Shown: positions 7,529 to 30,755, counted from the whole stretch's first letter. The stretch: DNA of 62,844 nt, filler included, from Stramenopiles sp. TOSAG23-2 (GCA_900128395.1; 17 parts of 17 records of this genome joined end to end with filler, not necessarily neighbours in it), one strand, 5' to 3'. The notes: a model not told the origin generated them from the letters alone. Numbers and translations are program-made.

Positions 7529-8172
7529 AAAAAATACTAGTATTAACTACGCAACCAACCTCTCTGTTTCGTATTCATTGTTTATCATACAATGTTATCT
7601 ATCAAACCAATTCTATACTTACTTGTATTTTTAGCCTAACCTGTATCCATAGTAAAGTATAGTGGAAAATCCCATATCCGGGATATCATCGATTTTTTAC
7701 ATCGCTTCTTTTTATTCACTTCATACCGATTACACTATGTTATATTACCTATCAAGATACAAAGGGCTTATCAGCTTATCAGTGTCATCTTCTGCAAAAT
7801 ACGTTATAAAAAAAACAGCAAAAAATAATAATAAAAAAATTGTTGTTTATAATAAGAAAATAAGCAACAGTGTGTATATGTTCATGCAGAAAGTTGGAAA
7901 AATCATTTCCTACCATCCGATTTACTACCTCCCTCCTGGCCCTCCCTTGCCTTTCCTTTCCCCTGGCATGCTTTCAACATATAAATATGGCATATTATAT
8001 TCAACCGGTAAAGAGACTGGCAGAAGAATTAGATGANNNNNNNNNNNNNNNNNNNNNNNNNNNNNNNNNNNNNNNNNNNNTTAATTAATTAANNNNNNNN
8101 NNNNNNNNNNNNNNNNNNNNNNNNNNNNNNNNNNNNTATTAATTATTTGGAAACTTAATTAGGTGGAGAATC

Positions 8173-10847
8173 ATGGCCTTTAATAATAATAATAATAATA
8201 GTAATAGATATGCGAATAATCAACCACCTATTACTACTACTAATAATAATAATAATAATAATACCAAAACCACAACAGGGAAAAAGAAGACATTTCAAAG
8301 TAATAGCATAAACAAAAATAGAAAGAGAAAAGGGAAAAAGAACAGAAATCAAAATATAAATCGTGAACATATGTATTTTCATTGGGTAGAATCACATTTA
8401 GATAAACACGATGCACTTAATGCATATGCAAATAATGCTATACATTGGAAAGGGGAGTATAGGAGTCGTCATATGTTTAATGAATTTGTTCGAGCATCTG
8501 TTAGTGTGAAATTTATGGATGATGTTATACGTCTATATGTTGAAAAGAAAATAGAAATGCCAGAGAATGTATGCAAACGCTTTGTAACGCATAGAAAATC
8601 TATTATGGTCATATTACGTAGTGAACCGTTTTTATTAAGAACTGTTCTTTCATTTTTAATGCATATTCCAAATGCATTGGCATTAGGTGCTAAAGTGGAA
8701 GCAATTATTTCGTCTTTACGGATAAAAGTACGCATTTACGATGAGGATGAGCATCAATGGACCGTTCGATACAATCGAATGCTTGACATGGTACATATGG
8801 ATAATATTAATTCCAGCACCTCTGCATTAGCTGCAGTTGCAAATCAAATTGTATCAGCAGAGAAAGAAAGTATGCTAGGCCATTTGAATGTTGAATTTAT
8901 CGGAGAGCAAGGTGTGGGAGATGGTTTGACGCGAGAATTTTTTGATGTAATATCGAAAGATTTATTTTTTAAACCAGTTGGCAAATTTAATATTCCATTG
9001 TTTGAGACAATTGAAAATAATAGCAATGAAATTTTTGTAAAACGATCCAAATATTTTGAAGATTTAGCACTCCCTGTATGTGGCCATTTGCCTTATAAAA
9101 GCAGTAAACGGTTAAAAAATTGTGTTGAAACATGGTTATCCTCTGATCCACTTAATATTACTTGCCCAGTACATCCAATTCCATATTCGCTTACATTGCA
9201 ATATATGTATCGAAAAATTGGAGTGTATGTTGATAAAACGTTCCTTGATAAAAATGATTATTCATCTGATATGGTATGTGTTGAGAGGTCTGGTCGAATT
9301 GTTCGTGAGGAAACGGAGAAATTAATTCAATTTATACAAGAACGAAGGATGTTTTATAAGTGTGTAGGAAGACTCATTGGATTATCTATTATCAATAGAC
9401 AACCATTATCAATATCGTTTCCATTGTTATTTTTTAAACAATTATTGGAAATTCCTTTTGAATTTGATGATTTGAAAGATATCGATTTACAAGTATATAA
9501 AAGNNNNNNNNNNNNNNNNNNNNNNNNNNNNNNNNNNNNNNNNNNNNNNNNNNNNNNNNNNNNNNNNNNNNNNNNNNNNNNNNNNNNNNNNNNNNNNNNN
9601 NNNNNNNNNNNNNNNNNNNNNNNNNNNNNNNNNNNNNNNNNNNNNNNNNNNNNNNNNNNNNNNNNNNNNNNNNNNNNNNNNNNNNNNNNNNNNNNNNNNN
9701 NNNNNNNNNNNNNNNNNNNNNNNNNNNNNNNNNNNNNNNNNNNNNNNNNNNNNNNNNNNNNNNNNNNNNNNNNNNNNNNNNNNNNNNNNNNNNNNNNNNN
9801 NNNNNNNNNNNNNNNNNNNNNNNNNNNNNNNNNNNNNNNNNNNNNNNNNNNNNNNNNNNNNNNNNNNNNNNNNNNNNNNNNNNNNNNNNNNNNNNNNNNN
9901 NNNNNNNNNNNNNNNNNNNNNNNNNNNNNNNNNNNNNNNNNNNNNNNNNNNNNNNNNNNNNNNNNNNNNNNNNNNNNNNNNNNNNNNNNNNNNNNNNNNN
10001 NNNNNNNNNNNNNNNNNNNNNNNNNNNNNNNNNNNNNNNNNNNNNNNNNNNNNNNNNNNNNNGATTATCTATTATCAATAGACAACCATTATCAACATCG
10101 TTTCCATTGTTATTTTTTAAACAATTATTGGAAATTCCTTTTGAATTTGATGATTTGAAAGATATTGATTTACAAGTATATAAAAGTTTGATCAGGTTAA
10201 AACAGCAAGATAAAGATGAATTTGTGACAAATGAAAAAAGTGTAAATGTAATACCATGTGCACCAATTCCATTTAAAGGATTAGAATCAATGGAAGGTGC
10301 GAAAGATGTTTATAAAAAAGTTGTTGATGATGAAGTGTTTCAACCAATTGTACATGATAATTATGATTCTTTAACATCTGTGGATCCACCACGATTAAAA
10401 TTAGCAAAGAAAAAACAGAAAAATAATAACAACAAGAACAGCAAAAAGAATGTAGTTACTTATAAAAATGTGAAATCATATGTAAAAAGTGCTGCATTAG
10501 AATTTGCGCTTGGTCATCGAAGTGATGCAATTTCCACTATACGTTTGGGCTTACATGATATTATACCACGTAAAGTTTTAAGTAAATTTACTGCAGAGGA
10601 GTTGAAATTATTAGTTTGTGATCATGCACGTGAAATCGATCTGCAGCAATTAAAAGAAAATGTTGAATACCGTAGTGGACTTGATGAATCTCATGTAATT
10701 GTGCGTTGGTTTTGGAAATGGGCTTTGCAATTAGATGCAGAAATGCAACGAAACTTATTATTATTTTGGTCTGGTTCAAGCACACCACCATTACATGGTT
10801 TCTTGCCAATAAGTGACAATGTCTGCTTTGCAATGTTCAATACGTAA
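8173..10847 (+). CDS. HECT-domain E3 ubiquitin ligase (interrupted by scaffold gap; C-lobe truncated)
   Basis: LNVEFIGEQGVGDGLTREFF, VGRLIGLSI, DLKDIDLQVYKSL, FTAEELKLLVC, IVRWFW, LLLFWSGS. 9380-9503 is repeated at 10063-10186, so merging the overlap gives one ORF. The catalytic HTCF motif is absent. Confidence 0.88.
9504..10062. other. Scaffold gap whose flanks overlap (negative gap)
   Basis: 124 nt before the gap recur after it with 2 substitutions. Confidence 0.9.
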
Positions 10848-15412: not shown

Positions 15413-16251
15413 ATTGTTTGTTATTATACTAGAACCTATATATTTAGTTGCTGTTTGTGTATAAACATACAATATAATATTGTAATACGTCTATTATTCT
15501 CCAATTCAATATATTTCTTAGTTTTATTATTATTCATACATCACGCAAACAAAAGCTATATTTATAAAAATGTTGGTGCACCACCACCACGTACGATACC
15601 GTACAGTATTAATGCTATTTACATCTTAATCCCGAAACACATATTATAGCTAGCGAATGGTTTTGGTGATCGAGGAGGCCGGTGCTTTGCGGATTGCCAG
15701 ATTGCCTGGATTGATTTATTGATTGCCAGGATTGCACGACTGCCACAGACCACCAGGCTGGAAGGCCATCAGAAGGCGGCTGGAAGGCCAGAAGGAACTG
15801 CACAGCCTATTATACCTGGTGATAATTCTAATAATTGAAATAATACAAATAAGTAATTTAAAATACGAAACGCCGTGGAAGGCGAGGACCCCTGCCCCAA
15901 GAAGAAAGGGGTTTGTAGCAGTGTTGGGATTGGATGAAAATTTAAGGGTGGAAATGTCGTTAAAGTGGTATGGGAAAATAGTGGATTGGTGAATTATATT
16001 AGTATGTATATAGCATTGGTGTTCGACCTTAATTAGAAGAAGAGGATTGAGAGTGAGTAATGAAAAATTATTTTAAAATAAAAGTAATACTGTTTTCATT
16101 TATAGTGGAGTAATAAAAAATAATTTAAAAAAACGAAATGGTTTATTGANNNNNNNNNNNNNNNNNNNNNNNNNNNNNNNNNNNNNNNNNNNNTTAATTA
16201 ATTAANNNNNNNNNNNNNNNNNNNNNNNNNNNNNNNNNNNNNNNNNNNNAT

Positions 16252-17265
16252 AATTTATATGTTGAAGTGACAGATACCATTAAATACGAAGGTTATTTAC
16301 ATAATGGTATGCTTAAATTATTAAAGTCATTGAAACATATTCGTTCAAGCAAAAAACAATTAGCAACAAATTTAGTCAATACATTTTTCAAAAGCGTTTC
16401 AACATGTGGTCCACGCATTATGGATGCCCCGGGTGCAAAAGATAAAAAGAAATTATGTGAATTGTTTATTCCGTACCAACATTCCATGGCACAATTTTAC
16501 AATTTAATTGAAAGCTTGTATACACAAACGCTGCCGATTCAAACATCGTTTTTAGAAACCATGGAGGTATTGCGCAAACGTTCGACAGCAGCACGGGTTG
16601 GCAAAAATAATATACAAAACGTGATGCAAATGAAACCTAAAGCTACTGCACAAGCGACATGTACTGGTGGTTCGGAGTGGGTTTCGTCAAAGCTGAAAGA
16701 GAAGAAGAAATTCTTTTGTAGAGGATACAACCATTTGGATTTAAGCAAGGATACCAACATCAGAAATGTGGCCGTACAGTATTTGAAACAGGATATCAAT
16801 ATAATGGATACAGAAATGTTGCGGTTGTCCAAGCAATTGCGCTATTGGGTGACCGATGACTCATGCCCATCCCCATTGTTTGAAGCCAAAGATATTTCAA
16901 TACAACGGGTTGCAATGGATGCCTTGGGCACTAAAAAAGAATGGGTTGCCGTGGTGAATCTAAACACCGAAGATAAAAATGGGTATTTGCAAAGCGAGTT
17001 GCCGCGTTGTGAAAGTGAAAAACGCTATTTGATTGGTGCTAAGCTGAAAGTCAAAGCCTACGTGGATAATGAGAATTGTTGCCTAGGTGAAGTAAGCTAC
17101 AAAAAATGTATTGATGGCTGTGAAAATAAGTTAAAGAAATTGAAAGACAAAGACCACAAACATTATTCCAAAGATGTGAAGTTGACGGGAACGCAATACA
17201 GGGTGGACGATTCACATGGGGGTAGGAGGAGGCGGTTGTTACAACAAGGAAATGATGGATGCTAA
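16252..17265 (+). CDS. Cys-containing protein, C-terminal part, ending RRRRLLQQGNDGC (5' truncated)
   Basis: Frame open from the contig start for >330 codons; no family recognised; C-terminal motif shared with the 28523-30755 protein. Confidence 0.8.
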   Translation, partial: NLYVEVTDTIKYEGYLHNGMLKLLKSLKHIRSSKKQLATNLVNTFFKSVSTCGPRIMDAPGAKDKKKLCELFIPYQHSMAQFYNLIESLYTQTLPIQTSFLETMEVLRKRSTAARVGKNNIQNVMQMKPKATAQATCTGGSEWVSSKLKEKKKFFCRGYNHLDLSKDTNIRNVAVQYLKQDINIMDTEMLRLSKQLRYWVTDDSCPSPLFEAKDISIQRVAMDALGTKKEWVAVVNLNTEDKNGYLQSELPRCESEKRYLIGAKLKVKAYVDNENCCLGEVSYKKCIDGCENKLKKLKDKDHKHYSKDVKLTGTQYRVDDSHGGRRRRLLQQGNDGC

Positions 17266-17731
17266 AAAATGTTCTGCGCTTGTTTTTATAACTTCTTCTT
17301 CTTTATTTTAAGACCCGGTTTATCTGAGCTGAGAGAGAGAGGACTTCCAGTGTTGTCCAAATAAAATTTTATATTTTTTACTTTATAAATAAATGTACAA
17401 AATTACAAATACTATTTTACTATCAAACCTCGTCGTGCACTATAATTCCTACATAGATCTGGCATTAGTCGAGCAAAATCAATCATTTTTGGAAAGTTTA
17501 ATTATAATGGTATGTCTATGTTATATTCAATGTTCTTCCTAAATAACCAAATAACCATGGACCATCCAACTGGTATGTATTATTTATGGTGAGAAAAGAT
17601 AAAGATGTACAGTCGGGTGGGATATAAAGAGATATACATAAAGGAACGGATTCGTGTGCCAGTATTGGGTAGTAATTTATTTATATAATTTGTTATTGTT
17701 ATATTGTGTCACTATAGATTTGATTTAAAAG

Positions 17732-24339: not shown

Positions 24340-25250
24340 ATTTAGCTTTTGCACTTTTCTTTGATTTATCTGATTTAGCTTTTGCACTTTTCTTCGATTT
24401 ATCTGATGCAGCTTTTGCACTTTTCTTTGATTTATCAGACGATTTCTTTGCTGATTTTGCAGCTTTATCAGATGATTTCTTTGCTGATTTTGCAGCTTTA
24501 TCAGATGATTTCTTTGCAGATTTAGCTGCACTTTCAGAACTTTTTTTAGCTGATTTTGCTGCTTTCTCTGAACTTTTTTTTGCTTGAGCAGAACTTTTCT
24601 TAGCTGATTTAGCCGCATTAGCTGAGCTTTTTTTAGCATTACTTGCACTTTTCTTTGCACTACCACTTTTACTCGATCCTTTACTTGCACTGGCACTACC
24701 ACTTGCACCACCTTTACTCGATCCTTTACTTGCACTTGCACTACCACTTGCACTTGCACCACTTTTACTCGATCCTTTACTAGCACTGGCACTACCACTT
24801 GCACTTGCACCACCACTACCACTTTTACTCGATCCTTTACTAGCACTAGCACTACCTTTCACACTAGTACTTTGACTTGCACTGGCACTGCCACCTTTAC
24901 CTCCTTTTTTAGATGTCGTTGTTTCTAAGAAACTTTGTTTCGTTGTACTAGTTTTTGACTCCTCCGATTCGTCTTCCTCTTCTCTATCATGCAGCCCATC
25001 GCCATTTGCATAATCATAATTCCAAATTACTTTGTCGATACCTAAATATTTTGGTGCAACGTCAGACGTAGGACGAAAATCAGCTGGACATAAGTTACAA
25101 CAAGGGATTTTTTTACTAGTACCTGGCAATCTAAATTTTGGATGTGGTGCAAGAACTTTGACCCAATCATCAGGCGGACATGGTGTTAGTTTTGGTGGGT
25201 CTGGTTTATATTCGGCTTTTTTCATCGGGCTTTGAGATAGTATAGCTGCT
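24340..25250 (-). CDS. Fragment of a low-complexity Ser/Ala/Lys repeat protein (both ends uncertain)
   Basis: CCNLCP and SFLE motifs, then GSASASKGSSK repeats and 11-residue KSAKKSSDKAA repeats running into the linker. Confidence 0.75.
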
Positions 25251-25254
25251 ACTG

Positions 25255-25494
25255 ATGGCAGGCTGCAATGAATATACATGTATACAAAAAGGTTATGGCG
25301 CAGATATTAGTAGTGGCGGCATGGCATTAAGGCCTATGAATACTAAAAATAAATGCCCAGATTATAGTGCAGTTAGTTCTTTAGAAACATTGATGAAACA
25401 TGGTATCACTACGGATATATTACGTTGGTATGGTACATTATGTGAAAAAGTGGATGGCTGTATGTATATTAAAGCTACAAATACGTGTGTGTAA
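25255..25494 (+). CDS. 3' fragment of a Cys-containing protein
   Basis: Coding-like sequence ending in TAA followed by (GA)n and an AT-rich 3' region; abuts the opposite-strand ORF with no promoter space. Confidence 0.5.
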   Translation: MAGCNEYTCIQKGYGADISSGGMALRPMNTKNKCPDYSAVSSLETLMKHGITTDILRWYGTLCEKVDGCMYIKATNTCV

Positions 25495-28522: not shown

Positions 28523-30755
28523 TTATGAATCGCCACCAGTGTTTTGCAATAACCTCCTCCTTCTACTACCATTATCTTCACAAGCAATACCATATTTCAC
28601 ACCTTTCACCCATACCGTACATGTACTCATCAATGCACCATTCTCATCCATGACTTCCACTTGATTTTCTGATCGTTCATTTTTACATTGTGGTGGATGT
28701 AATGATGCTTGACATCGATCATATGCAACACCACCATCTTTTGTACAATCATAAATAATATTTACAAGATCGTTCTTACTATTGTATTTCATATTTTTTT
28801 CTGTTAAAAATTTATCTTCCTCTTTACCTAATACTTTAAATTGTAAATCTTTTGCAGTTGTATCAATATGTATATCAACAGCATTTTCTTTTAATAAATT
28901 CATATGTTCCGATACTGGACATGTTGTCTTTGAATTACTAAATGTTTTTCCTTTTAAAAAATCGGAAATACGTTTTGCAATACCATTTTTTGGATCTGCA
29001 ATGTTCATTAAACGTTTGCATAAATGTTTTTCTTCAGTTTTGTAAAATTTAAATCTACCAAGACTAAATAAACGTTTATGAAAACGCATTTTTTTCGTCA
29101 TTTCTTTGAATGCACATTTTTTCATATCAAGACGACAATCTTTTGAACAAGTTGTTTTTGAATTGATGCGTTTGCCTGCATTACTACCACCATAACAATC
29201 TCTAGCATATATAGGCCAATCCGTATATATTGGTTTTACAGTACATGTAAATGTTTGTTCACAATCATCATATACTTTTGTACCTTTTGCAGCAACTTTC
29301 AATGCATGTATTAAATGATGTTGTGTTTCTCGTTCTTTTGTTGTTTTAACATGAACATGTGATAGTTTTTGTTCTATTGCACAATTCAAACAATTAAGAT
29401 AATTTCCATTTGTAAATGTGTTAAATTTATTTGAACATGTATCATAATAATTGTTGGATTTTGTTGGTCTTGTTGGGAGTTTGACGGTTTTTTGCCGATT
29501 TGCTAGATCGTTCTTCCAAGATAAAGTATGTCCTCTTTCAACAGTATAAGGTTCTCTAAATTTATTTGTTGCTTTGTATATATATGGACATTGATTAGCA
29601 AGTTCATCGTAAAATCCATTGTCACGAATTAAACGAATTATTGGGCCATGTCCTTCCTCAAAATTACTTTCAACACACACTCTTGCATATGCCTCCTCTT
29701 CCGAAACAAAATCATACACATGTCTACGCAAGTTCATCTTATATGGAAACGACCTTACAACGAACGGCCTTTTATCCGCATAATAATCATGATATTCATA
29801 CACATCCGTTGTTCTCGTTTTATAACTATTAATTCCAAAGGTATGTTTACTTTTTTCACTTGTACTTCCTTTTGACGATGTTGTTGTTTCACTTGTTGTT
29901 GTTGTTGTCTTTGTTGTTCCTTTCGAAGACGAATCATCTTTTTTTGCTTCATCTGTTCCTGCTGCTGCTGCGTCTTCTTCTTTTTCTTCTTTTTTCACTT
30001 GTACTTCCTTTTGACGATGTTGTTGTTTCACTTGTTGTTGTTGTTGTTTTTGTTGTTCCTTTCGAAGACGACTCATCTTTTTTTCCTTCATCTGTTCCTG
30101 CTGCTGCTGCTTCTTCTTCTTTTTCTTCTTTTTTATTATCATCATCATCATCACTTTGACTGGATGTTCCTTTCGTTGGTACTTGACTACATTCACCTTT
30201 TCCACTTAATTTATCACAATCTTCTTTATAACAAATAGGTTCATTTTTACATGTTGTAGGACAACATTGATAAAAATCTTTCTTATACGAAGTACAATAT
30301 TTTGCCATTGATGCACATTTCCAACTACGAGCACCAAATCTAACAAGTGCTTTTGATAAACAAGCATCATTATCAACACGGTTGCATTTCGAGTTACTGT
30401 TGGTGGTGGTCGTGGTGCTGGTACTGCTACCACTACTACCATCTGGAAGTGAGTCACACGTACCTTTACCACTAAGTTTCTTACATTCTGATTTTGTACA
30501 TATTGGTTCAACACCACAAGTACTTGGACAACAACGGTGCATGTTTTTATTATAACTTGTACAATATTTTTTCACTTGCGAACATTTGGATACACCATAT
30601 TTCGACCATTCGTTTGTAATACAACTATTTGAATCAGCTTTATGACATTTCCCAACTTGTATTTGTTCTTTGATTTGACTTAAACCGTCAAGGCGTAACA
30701 TATGGCTATGTGCAATTGCTAGCACAACACATAATAATAGTATGGTGAACTTCAT
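28523..30755 (-). CDS. Secreted Cys-rich protein: two ShK-like repeats, S/T/E/K linker, Cys-rich C-half ending RRRRLLQNTGGDS; frameshift near 29990
   Basis: Signal peptide MKFTILLLCVVLAIAHS; two C...KYCTSY...CCP[ST]TC..EPIC repeats; ORFs 29949-30755 and 28523-30205 switch frame inside a 139-bp tandem duplication. Confidence 0.8.
29851..30134. repeat. 139-bp tandem duplication causing the frameshift
   Basis: Two copies encoding KEEKEE.AAAAGTDE.KKD.SSSKGTTKTTTTTSETTTSSKGSTSEK with about 4 substitutions; period not divisible by 3. Confidence 0.9.

What the first reader, a model, noticed from the sequence alone, without database searches (positions are those of the whole stretch)
17176..17265. 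Shared C-terminal tag VxxxGxxY...RRRRLLQ-x6-stop, copy 1: candidate undescribed sorting or processing signal
Seen: this protein ends VKLTGTQYRVDDSHGG-RRRRLLQ-QGNDGC*. A different protein on another contig (28523-28615) ends VWVKGVKYGIACEDNGS-RRRRLLQ-NTGGDS*. Both have V-x3-G-x2-Y, a G/S/D linker, four Arg, LLQ, and exactly six small or polar residues before the stop. The DNA differs at synonymous sites, and I see no similarity in the rest of the proteins. Known: RRLL/RxxL is the site-1 protease (S1P/SBT6.1) motif and polybasic RxRR is cut by kexin/furin. Inference: two hits among roughly 30 random genes imply a large class of Cys-rich secreted proteins carrying a portable C-terminal tag, which could direct cleavage, cross-linking or delivery to a dedicated structure (extrusome, scale, coat).
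Basis: partly seen in the sequence, partly recalled or inferred. Interest (0 to 1): 0.8.

Follow-up and report, generated by a model that had tools for sequence, protein, structure and literature searches.

The report
Portable RRRRLL tail on secreted proteins
Unrelated secreted proteins of an uncultured marine protist, probably a stramenopile, end in the same short element (a small beta-hairpin, four arginines, two leucines and about seven more residues), which most likely marks a protease cutting site and has not been described before.

Summary
Both ORFs end in hairpin, linker, RRRRLLQ, six residues, stop. They share nothing else. The expected number of long ORFs in the window with this 7-mer at that offset is about 4.5e-8.

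In public protein data the tail is present on 146 of 216 retrieved proteins, and most of the rest are fragments. It sits on three unrelated terminal contexts (domain A, domain B, a ~110-aa module T) and at least four unrelated bodies, many with signal peptides. It is kept down to 30-40% identity.

AlphaFold2 places it as a low-confidence extension after the last hairpin in both families. Poly-A seawater metatranscriptome contigs cross the stop colinearly.

The conserved core is R-R-x-[LMVI]-[LFM], which matches the published S1P/SKI-1 rule (R-X-aliphatic-Z, RRLL optimal). The same motif also recurs internally, at linkers and in a floppy loop: 21 observed against 0.25 expected.

Best reading (about 0.45): a lineage-specific proprotein-processing site carried in a portable C-terminal element. 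Neither cleavage nor the protease is shown. The fixed 7-8-residue cap ending in Cys or Ser is unexplained, so a sorting or docking role stays open.

Verdict: new variant of a known kind, moderate interest.

The parts
17176..17262 (+). Tail element, copy 1: two-strand hairpin (VKLTGTQYRV), linker DDSHGG, RRRRLL, Q plus six residues ending in Cys. The stop TAA is at 17263-17265.
   Evidence: In the AlphaFold2 model the hairpin is strands 306-312 and 315-320 and is confident; residues 321-337 fall to pLDDT 62 then 45.
17224..17241 (+). Conserved core RRRRLL of copy 1 (AGG AGG AGG CGG TTG TTA).
16252..17262 (+). Family A C-terminal domain (P0001, 337 aa), cut at its 5' end by the contig end. The full-length form is P0178 (803 aa) with a signal peptide and Cys-rich ephrin-receptor-like repeats.
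   Evidence: Poly-A RNA contigs cover 16250-17305.
28526..28615 (-). Tail element, copy 2: hairpin (VWVKGVKYGI), linker ACEDNGS, RRRRLL, Q plus six residues ending in Ser. The stop TAA is at 28523-28525.
   Evidence: In the AlphaFold2 model the strands are 390-399 and 402-409, followed by coil at pLDDT 47 then 29.
28547..28564 (-). Conserved core RRRRLL of copy 2 (AGA AGG AGG AGG TTA TTG).
28526..29800 (-). Family B C-terminal domain (P0002, 425 aa).
29952..30755 (-). N-terminal part of the family B gene (P0003): signal peptide MKFTILLLCVVLAIAHS, two Cys-rich modules and a T/K/E-rich linker.
   Evidence: Homologues P0012 and P0006 join this part to the B domain in one frame.
29850..30134 (-). 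139-bp tandem duplication (2.1 copies, 97% matches) that shifts the frame between P0003 and P0002 in this assembly.

Best explanation
The shared tail is a lineage-specific proprotein-processing site packaged in a portable C-terminal element. The proteins enter the secretory pathway through a signal peptide (shown by sequence). The tail protrudes as a disordered extension (predicted). A Golgi/ER endoprotease with S1P/SKI-1-like specificity (R-X-aliphatic-Leu, cutting after the second hydrophobic residue) then removes the short C-terminal cap (inferred). The same site, placed in inter-domain linkers and in an exposed loop of domain A, would separate or open domains in the larger relatives (inferred). 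The host is an uncultured marine protist, probably a deep-branching stramenopile of the MAST type.
For: (1) Deep conservation. All 8 family B homologues that reach the C-terminus keep RRRRL[LF], including two at 39-40% identity in which the linker before it varies by up to 8 residues. In family A, 79 of the 150 listed hits have a run of 3 or more basic residues plus a hydrophobic pair in the last 30 aa. Most of the 71 others are fragments that stop short of the C-terminus, and several that do reach it keep degenerate forms such as RRTLL, RRHLL, RRQLL and GRKLL.
(2) Position-specific pattern in 97 non-redundant tails: R 92/97 at -3, R 94 plus K 3 at -2, a variable -1 (R 73), L90/V3/M3/I1 at 0, and L85/F9/M3 at +1. 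Positions -2, 0 and +1 were partly enforced by my selection pattern. This matches the published S1P rule 'R-X-Aliphatic-Z, Z best Leu', with RRLL called optimal (PMC8310232, passages read).
(3) Exposure. In both AlphaFold2 models the tail is coil and confidence collapses right after the last hairpin.
(4) The motif is not tied to the C-terminus. RRR[LMIV][LFM] occurs 21 times internally in 207 proteins (last 25 aa excluded), against 0.245 in shuffles (maximum 2 in 200). Eight of these fall in the domain A loop region, which is modelled at pLDDT 51-56 in P0001. Nine fall in the linker before terminal module T. One lies 60 residues from an N-terminus.
(5) Secretory context: signal-peptide-like N-termini.
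(6) The stops are real. A poly-A metatranscriptome contig (X4, record 22) spans 17188-17339 colinearly across the TAA, and no joint is reported at or after the tail.
(7) Precedent in stramenopiles. Diatom RXL/RRL motifs are removed 'by a yet unknown protease' and also occur near C-termini of TpSAP1 and TpSAP3 (PMC5525289 and PMC5647440, passages read).
Against: No cleavage product and no protease were observed. No genome is held for the window, and I had no permitted S1P query sequence, so the presence of an S1P-like subtilase in these organisms is untested. Cleavage alone does not explain several features. The cap has a near-fixed length: 7 or 8 residues after LL in 85 of 111 A tails, 12 of 14 B tails and 13 of 13 T tails. 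It prefers Q right after LL, is G-rich, and ends in Cys or Ser. It also does not explain why a hairpin with G-x-x-Y always precedes the tail at C-termini. The basic run (mostly 4 Arg) is longer than S1P requires. The 21 internal sites fall into only a few homologous positions, so they are not 21 independent events. Part of the protein set was collected with a tail profile, which could inflate that count; 12 of the 21 come from the set found with whole P0001.
Confidence: 0.45

Rival explanations
1. The tail is not cut, or cutting is secondary. It acts as a docking, sorting or anchoring tag. The polybasic-hydrophobic patch plus a free C-terminus at a fixed distance would be read by a receptor, or would bind an anionic surface such as a glycan coat, matrix or prey surface. 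The terminal Cys could form an intermolecular disulfide.
For: The cap length is nearly fixed and the last residue is Cys or Ser in 65 of 79 family A tails. Q follows LL in 52 of 97 tails. A conserved hairpin precedes the tail in all three terminal contexts; 32-39 aligned columns (66 for A against B) exceed the bare motif, except module T against B, where only 15 columns align. Carriers include collagen-like, Kelch, RCC1/tectonin and Cys-repeat extracellular architectures that would suit a surface coat. Recalled analogies, not tested here: plant C-terminal vacuolar propeptides, and the polybasic, Cys-containing C-terminal heparin-binding region of extracellular superoxide dismutase.
Against: The same RRRRLL occurs internally, far from any C-terminus and without a preceding hairpin. 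A carboxylate-dependent tag would not predict that. Family B tails have no Cys in 13 of 14. No receptor or target is known.
Confidence: 0.25
2. It is a cleavage site, but for a different protease: a PEXEL/TEXEL-type aspartic protease cutting R-x-L|x-Q or RRL|, or a kexin/furin-type convertase cutting after the Arg run.
For: RRLLQ fits RxLxE/Q/D, and RRL fits the TEXEL core. [quoted passage not shown] The run of 3-7 basic residues fits dibasic or furin-like sites.
Against: After LL the residue is Q 52/97 with almost no E or D, and internal sites are followed by G, T, S or N rather than Q. The first hydrophobic position tolerates V, M or I in 7 of 97 tails, and the second hydrophobic position is conserved, which a cut after the first Leu does not need. 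The residue before LL is non-basic in 16 of 97 tails, which would break a kexin site at that place. A cut after Arg does not explain the invariant LL.
Confidence: 0.15
3. The similarity is ordinary distant paralogy. A, B and T share an ancestral C-terminal subdomain, and the tail is simply its conserved end with no tag or processing role.
For: The A against B alignment extends to 66 columns and includes a similar Cys pattern upstream of the hairpin, so a small shared subdomain is possible.
Against: The rest of the proteins are unrelated (E 0.4; E 0.07 or worse). The most conserved residues lie in a predicted disordered stretch, not in the fold. The motif also occurs internally in other contexts.
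Confidence: 0.08
4. Chance, or low-complexity coincidence.
For: None beyond the shortness of the motif.
Against: Expected 4.5e-8 ORFs in the window against 2 observed. Conserved across 146 retrieved proteins.
Confidence: 0.01

Closest known systems
S1P/SKI-1 (MBTPS1; plant SBT6.1) recognition sites, for example the RRLL of the enzyme's own prodomain site C and of arenavirus and nairovirus glycoproteins
   Same: The core R-R-L-L is identical. The tolerance pattern is also the same: invariant R at P4, free P3, aliphatic P2, Leu-like P1. The substrates are lumenal and the site lies in an exposed segment.
   Different: Here the site lies 7-8 residues from the C-terminus, behind a conserved hairpin and in front of a cap ending in Cys or Ser. 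The Arg run is longer. Neither the enzyme nor cleavage is shown in this lineage.
Diatom RXL (RRL/RRIL) propeptide motif of silaffins, cingulins, silicanin and SAPs
   Same: A stramenopile secretory-pathway motif with an RRL core, removed by a protease that is still unknown. It also occurs near the C-terminus in TpSAP1 and TpSAP3.
   Different: The diatom motif usually ends a propeptide of about 30 aa just after the signal peptide of biosilica proteins. Here the motif is terminal or inter-domain, on non-silica proteins of a heterotroph-like lineage, and it has a defined hairpin and cap.
Plant pro-pectin-methylesterase and RALF processing motifs (RRLL, RKLL, RKLK)
   Same: The same tetrapeptides separate a pro-region from a mature secreted domain, sometimes as two sites in one protein (bioRxiv 10.1101/2022.07.28.501549, passages read).
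   Different: The plant pro-region is N-terminal and large, with no C-terminal cap.
Apicomplexan PEXEL/TEXEL sites cut by plasmepsin V or ASP5
   Same: An R-x-L / RRL core in secreted proteins of another SAR lineage. ASP5 acts at both N- and C-terminal ends (abstract text seen).
   Different: E and D are absent after the motif. The second hydrophobic residue is conserved, and the first tolerates V, M or I. These sites belong to an export pathway of intracellular parasites.
Bacterial C-terminal sorting tags (LPXTG/sortase, PEP-CTERM/exosortase, T9SS C-terminal domain). This comparison is recalled, not tested.
   Same: The concept is the same: one C-terminal element on many unrelated exported proteins, removed on delivery.
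   Different: The bacterial tags carry a transmembrane helix plus basic tail, or a 70-100-aa beta-sandwich. This tail has no hydrophobic segment and its core is a eukaryotic convertase-type motif.

Membership tests
S1P/SKI-1-type cleavage site | Basic residue (Arg) at P4 | tested here: met
   R 94 plus K 3 of 97 non-redundant tails at position -2. This position was partly enforced by my selection pattern. The rule comes from PMC8310232.
S1P/SKI-1-type cleavage site | Any residue at P3, aliphatic residue at P2 | tested here: met
   Position -1 is R 73, K 8 and 16 others. Position 0 is L90 V3 M3 I1.
S1P/SKI-1-type cleavage site | P1 preferably Leu | tested here: met
   Position +1 is L85 F9 M3.
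S1P/SKI-1-type cleavage site | Substrate lies in the secretory lumen and the site is accessible | tested here: met
   Signal-peptide-like N-termini. The tail is coil with low pLDDT in both models. Both lines of evidence are predictions.
S1P/SKI-1-type cleavage site | Cleavage actually occurs after P1 | not testable with these tools
   Needs proteomics or a reporter assay.
S1P/SKI-1-type cleavage site | An S1P-like subtilase is encoded by the organism | not tested
   No genome is held. No subtilase-like ORF stood out in my reading of the window's long-ORF translations, which were not scanned against Pfam. No permitted query sequence was available.
Diatom RXL propeptide | RXL/RRL tripeptide ending a short propeptide right after the signal peptide | tested here: not met
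   In both window genes the motif is at the extreme C-terminus. Only two relatives show an RRLL-type motif near the N-terminus: P0053 by inspection, and P0088 at residue 60.
Diatom RXL propeptide | Stramenopile host | tested here: inconclusive
   One relative's cluster contains a member labelled Stramenopile-MAST_4. The best named relatives of a housekeeping gene from the window are stramenopiles at 36-45% identity. This is best-hit evidence only.
PEXEL/TEXEL site | RxLxE/Q/D, with E, Q or D at the fifth position | tested here: inconclusive
   Q in 52 of 97 tails; E and D are not among the nine most frequent residues at that position.
PEXEL/TEXEL site | PEXEL lies a short distance after the signal peptide (recalled) | tested here: not met
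   The location here is C-terminal or inter-domain.
GPI-anchor attachment signal | Hydrophobic C-terminal stretch after a small omega residue (recalled) | tested here: not met
   The tails end 7-8 polar or basic residues after LL, with no hydrophobic segment. RNA contigs cross the stop colinearly.
KDEL-type ER retrieval signal | C-terminal [KH]DEL-like tetrapeptide (recalled) | tested here: not met
   The last residues are mostly G-G-C or G-D-S.

The most novel reading that the evidence does not exclude
The hairpin, RRRRLL and 7-residue cap together form an undescribed eukaryotic C-terminal addressing system of uncultured marine stramenopiles. A receptor or assembly machine would read the exposed tail, including its free end. 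It would deliver hundreds of unrelated secreted proteins (collagen-like, propeller and Cys-repeat architectures) to one common surface structure or compartment. The cap would then be clipped off at RRLL on arrival. This would be a eukaryotic counterpart of bacterial sortase- or T9SS-type C-terminal tags.
Probability: 0.2. Interest if true: 0.8.

Novelty: new variant of a known kind. Interest (0 to 1): 0.55.

Why it matters
MAST-type flagellates are among the most abundant bacterial grazers in the sea, cannot be cultured, and their cell biology is almost unknown. A single conserved tail on a large, expressed set of secreted and surface proteins gives a handle on them. It predicts a specific maturation step and a specific class of protease. 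It offers a simple sequence rule for picking out this part of the secretome from metagenomes. It also links to the unidentified protease behind the RXL motif of diatom biosilica proteins, which the two diatom papers read here (both from 2017) still described as unknown. If the tail proves to be an address label rather than only a cutting site, it would be a new eukaryotic sorting signal.

Tried and rejected
- Whole-genome motif scan: not possible, because no genome is held for the window.
- Earlier notes of this scan: nothing on this genome or on this sequence. The word search returned only unrelated bacterial and phage tags.
- Pfam on the two proteins and on the N-terminal part: no hit reached a curated cut-off. 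There was also none for P0187, P0181, P0006 or P0012.
Nearly all matches are short out-of-frame or bacterial ORFs. Among the five matches with 100 or more upstream codons (L024, L038, L063, L089, L101), only L024 shows the C-terminal arrangement, and it belongs to family B. The test was too noisy to measure C-terminal enrichment and found no new family.
- Foldseek against the PDB gave no match at E 0.001 or better. VIA-align wide gave a best Z of 6.9, covering only the N-terminal helices, which is in the generic range. This shows neither a known nor a new fold for domain A.
- The protein atlas gave no usable hit.
- Literature: 'RRRRLL' anywhere in the text gave 14 papers, none about a protist motif. 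'RRLL' with C-terminal, secreted and cleavage motif gave only virus papers. In the one MAST single-cell genomics paper, passages found for 'secreted' and 'motif' do not mention such a tail.
- Considered and set aside: a ubiquitin-like GG end (G at the two positions before the last residue in only 37 and 39 of 97 tails; the proteins are extracellular); a transglutaminase Gln tag of the LLQG kind (recalled; Q present in only 52 of 97); a prenylation or PTS1 reading of the minority endings CANRL, GERL and CARL (the proteins carry signal peptides).
- Complex prediction was not used, because no candidate partner sequence was available.

Full report
THE WINDOW. The window is 17 separate contigs of 1.1-4.0 kb, joined by N spacers and listed by decreasing length, with 27-37% G+C. 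Long, mostly uninterrupted ORFs with poly-N and poly-T runs read under the standard code, which points to an AT-rich, intron-poor eukaryote. No whole genome is held for it.

THE OBSERVATION. Window 17176-17265 (+) reads VKLTGTQYRVDDSHGGRRRRLLQQGNDGC-stop, and 28523-28615 (-) reads VWVKGVKYGIACEDNGSRRRRLLQNTGGDS-stop. In a six-frame scan these are the only two R{3,}LL matches. Each lies 7 residues before the stop of a long ORF, with 342 and 547 upstream residues. Four of the seven RRRRLLQ codons differ synonymously between the genes, so this is not a recent DNA copy. By composition, the expected number of the window's 29 long ORFs with this 7-mer at that offset is 4.5e-8. BLASTP finds no similarity apart from the tail. 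Pfam finds no significant family for either protein.

THE TWO GENES. Gene A (P0001, 16252-17262) is cut at its 5' end by the contig end. A database protein that is 100% identical over the 44-aa query (the gene's C-terminal end), P0178 (803 aa), supplies the missing part. It has a signal-peptide-like N-terminus, Cys-rich ephrin-receptor-like repeats, then the ~340-aa domain A and the tail.

Gene B consists of a signal peptide, two Cys-rich modules and a T/K/E-rich linker (P0003), followed by the ~420-aa domain B (P0002) and the tail. In this assembly a 139-bp tandem duplication (2.1 copies, 97% matches) shifts the frame between the two parts. Homologues P0012 and P0006 have one copy and read through.

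CONSERVATION. Family B has 9 relatives in the word-indexed database. All 8 that reach the C-terminus keep RRRRL[LF] followed by 6-8 small residues. This includes two at only 39-40% identity, in which the linker before the Arg run varies by up to 8 residues.

Family A is large, with 177 clusters at 50% identity at E 0.001 or better. Of the 150 listed, 79 carry a run of 3 or more basic residues plus a hydrophobic pair in the last 30 residues. Most of the other 71 are fragments that stop short of the C-terminus, and several that reach it show degenerate forms (RRTLL, RRHLL, RRQLL, GRKLL).

Over all 216 stored proteins the tail is present as follows:
- A bodies: 111 of 176.
- A plus T: 4 of 5.
- B bodies: 14 of 14.
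- Module T alone: 13 of 13.
- Unclassified short fragments: 4 of 8.

PORTABILITY. Profile-profile comparison of family A (33 sequences) with family B (9 sequences) aligns only the last 66 columns (Prob 92.6, E 4.6e-7). With hairpin and tail removed it gives E 0.4, and the tail region alone gives E 2.2e-7 over 24 columns.

A search with a tail-only profile returned 64 proteins, 41 of them new. One of the new ones, a kinase (P0211), lacks the tail. The new proteins include bodies that match neither A nor B:
- P0187: 924 aa, signal peptide, K-rich body with a hydrophobic segment.
- P0216: 445 aa, signal peptide.

In both, the layout is body, RRRRLL, a terminal module of ~110 aa (T), then RRRRLLQ, six residues and the stop. 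The T modules of the two are homologous (108 columns, Prob 98.5, E 2.9e-15). Against A they share only the last 38-39 columns, and against B 15-32 columns. So the element common to all contexts is about 35 residues: two strands with G-x-x-Y, a linker, RRRRLL and a cap.

The N-terminal parts of family A members are also diverse. Of the 10 long members scanned, one has RCC1/tectonin repeats, one Kelch, three collagen triple helix and three ephrin-receptor-like or TNFR-like repeats; three have no Pfam hit at all.

ANATOMY OF THE TAIL. In 97 non-redundant tails, numbering the first hydrophobic residue as 0:
- -4: R 65.
- -3: R 92.
- -2: R 94, K 3.
- -1: R 73, otherwise variable.
- 0: L 90, V 3, M 3, I 1.
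- +1: L 85, F 9, M 3.
- +2: Q 52.
- +6 and +7: mostly G.
- +8: C 40, S 17.
- +9: stop in 50.

My selection pattern partly enforced positions -2, 0 and +1. The number of residues after LL is 7 or 8 in 85 of 111 A tails, 12 of 14 B tails and 13 of 13 T tails. A minority (11 of 79) extends past the Cys or Ser by a few residues ending in RL.

STRUCTURE. AlphaFold2 with a 60-sequence alignment gives a confident model of domain A (mean pLDDT 86.6, pTM 0.80). The V-x-L-T-G-T-x-Y-x-V part forms the last hairpin (strands 306-312 and 315-320), after which confidence falls to 62 and then 45 over residues 321-337.

The B model is only moderate (mean pLDDT 68.4, 14 sequences) but shows the same arrangement: strands 390-399 and 402-409, then coil at 47 and then 29. 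The tail is therefore predicted to be a flexible extension rather than part of the fold. Neither Foldseek nor VIA-align gave an informative PDB match for domain A.

THE MOTIF IS NOT ONLY C-TERMINAL. Excluding the last 25 residues, RRR[LMIV][LFM] occurs 21 times in 207 proteins (73,535 residues), against 0.245 in shuffles (maximum 2 in 200). The 21 occurrences fall into a few homologous positions:
- Eight are in the domain A loop region after the helix at 75-90, which is modelled at pLDDT 51-56 in P0001.
- Nine are in the linker before module T.
- Four lie elsewhere, one of them 60 residues from an N-terminus.

Twelve of the 21 come from the set found with whole P0001. A metagenome contig (L063) encodes an ORF of 1,894 aa or more, Cys-rich, with one internal RRRRLLQ between a Cys-poor region and further Cys repeats.

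EXPRESSION AND REALITY OF THE STOP. Seawater RNA libraries from 9 studies, most of them poly-A-selected or oligo-dT-primed (five rows are of uncertain kind and may be DNA), hold parts of the contig. Contigs of four runs from four studies cover 16250-17305, and coverage is close to zero from 17306 onwards. One contig (X4, record 22) spans 17188-17339 colinearly across the TAA, and no joint is listed at or after the tail. Contigs cannot define transcript ends, so this shows colinearity and presence in RNA libraries, not the poly-A site.

HOST. One member (P0168) of the 90% cluster of relative P0070 (36% identical to P0001) is labelled 'Stramenopile-MAST_4' by its source. For a housekeeping TPR-DnaJ gene of the window, unlabelled environmental sequences reach 68-99% identity. 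The best named relatives, at 36-45%, are stramenopiles: Aphanomyces, Ectocarpus species, Pylaiella, Tribonema and Scytosiphon. Animals follow at similar scores. An uncultured, deep-branching marine stramenopile is likely but not proven.

MECHANISM. The conserved core and its tolerated variation match the published S1P/SKI-1 rule. That rule is 'R-X-Aliphatic-Z', with Z best as Leu, and RRLL described as the optimal motif found in the enzyme's own prodomain and in Lassa and CCHF virus glycoproteins (PMC8310232, passages read).

Plants use RRLL, RKLL and RKLK between the pro-region and the mature pectin methylesterase (bioRxiv 10.1101/2022.07.28.501549, passages read). In diatoms an RRL/RXL motif ends a propeptide removed 'by a yet unknown protease', and also occurs near the C-terminus of two SAP proteins (PMC5525289 and PMC5647440, passages read).

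Taken together, the exposure, the secretory context and the recurrence at linkers make a proprotein-processing site the best-supported reading. The shown parts are the motif, its conservation, its position and the signal peptides. The predicted part is its flexibility. The inferred parts are cleavage, the enzyme and the compartment.

WHAT THIS DOES NOT EXPLAIN. Cleavage alone does not explain the near-constant cap length, the Q after LL, the G-rich end, the terminal Cys or Ser, or the hairpin that always precedes the tail. These features keep open a docking or sorting function that reads the free end, possibly followed by clipping. Alternative proteases (PEXEL/TEXEL-type aspartic, kexin/furin) fit the data less well, for the reasons given under rivals. 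ASP5 is nevertheless a precedent for processing at C-terminal ends (abstract text seen).

NOVELTY. Searches for the motif in the paper library found nothing relevant. Passages of one MAST single-cell genomics paper do not mention it. Supplements could not be read. The chemistry of the site is known, but its packaging as a portable C-terminal element on many unrelated secreted proteins of uncultured marine protists appears undescribed. I rate it a new variant of a known kind, with interest 0.55.

Noticed in passing
window 29850-30134 (-): A 139-bp tandem duplication (2.1 copies, 97% matches; 139 is not a multiple of 3) breaks the frame of the family B gene between its N-terminal part and domain B. 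Homologues have a single copy. It could be an assembly artefact, an allele or a pseudogene.
   Followed up: partly
window 9504-10062 and flanks (8143-9501, 10065-10844, +): A 559-N gap interrupts a HECT-type ubiquitin-ligase-like ORF. About 40 residues (…INRQPLS.SFPLLFFKQLLEIPFEFDDLKDIDLQVYK) are encoded on both sides of the gap, so the two sides overlap and were not merged.
   Followed up: no
window 16252-17262 (+) and relatives P0013-P0162: Domain A (~340 aa) gives a confident AlphaFold2 model but no informative PDB match and no Pfam family. In relatives it sits C-terminal to collagen triple helices, Kelch or RCC1 propellers and ephrin-receptor-like repeats. It may be an undescribed extracellular domain of marine protists.
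   Followed up: partly
window 29952-30755 (-): The N-terminal part of the B gene has two ~50-aa modules, each with eight Cys and ending in CCPxTC…C. From memory they resemble ShK-type toxin-like domains, but Pfam reports nothing, even at E up to 1.
   Followed up: no
L063 (metagenome contig, 9213 bases, - strand): An ORF of 1,894 aa or more, made of Cys-rich repeats, with one internal RRRRLLQ at residue 1421 between a Cys-poor region and further repeats. It shows the motif at a domain boundary in another, probably related, organism.
   Followed up: partly
relatives P0036, P0040, P0060, P0069, P0072, P0075, P0081, P0105, P0127, P0201 (C-termini): A subgroup of tails continues past the usual terminal Cys or Ser by 2-5 residues ending in RL (CANRL, GERL, CARL, GDRL). 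The meaning is unknown.
   Followed up: no
relatives P0053 (N-terminus) and P0088 (residue 60): An RRLL-type motif lies shortly after the signal peptide, in the position of the diatom RXL propeptide motif.
   Followed up: no
window 24341-25306 (-): An ORF cut by the contig end encodes a long low-complexity run of S/A/K/G repeats (…SASASKGSSKSG…, …AKKSS…) after a Cys- and Pro-containing N-terminal part. It may be another surface or matrix protein, and it has no RRRRLL tail in the part present.
   Followed up: no
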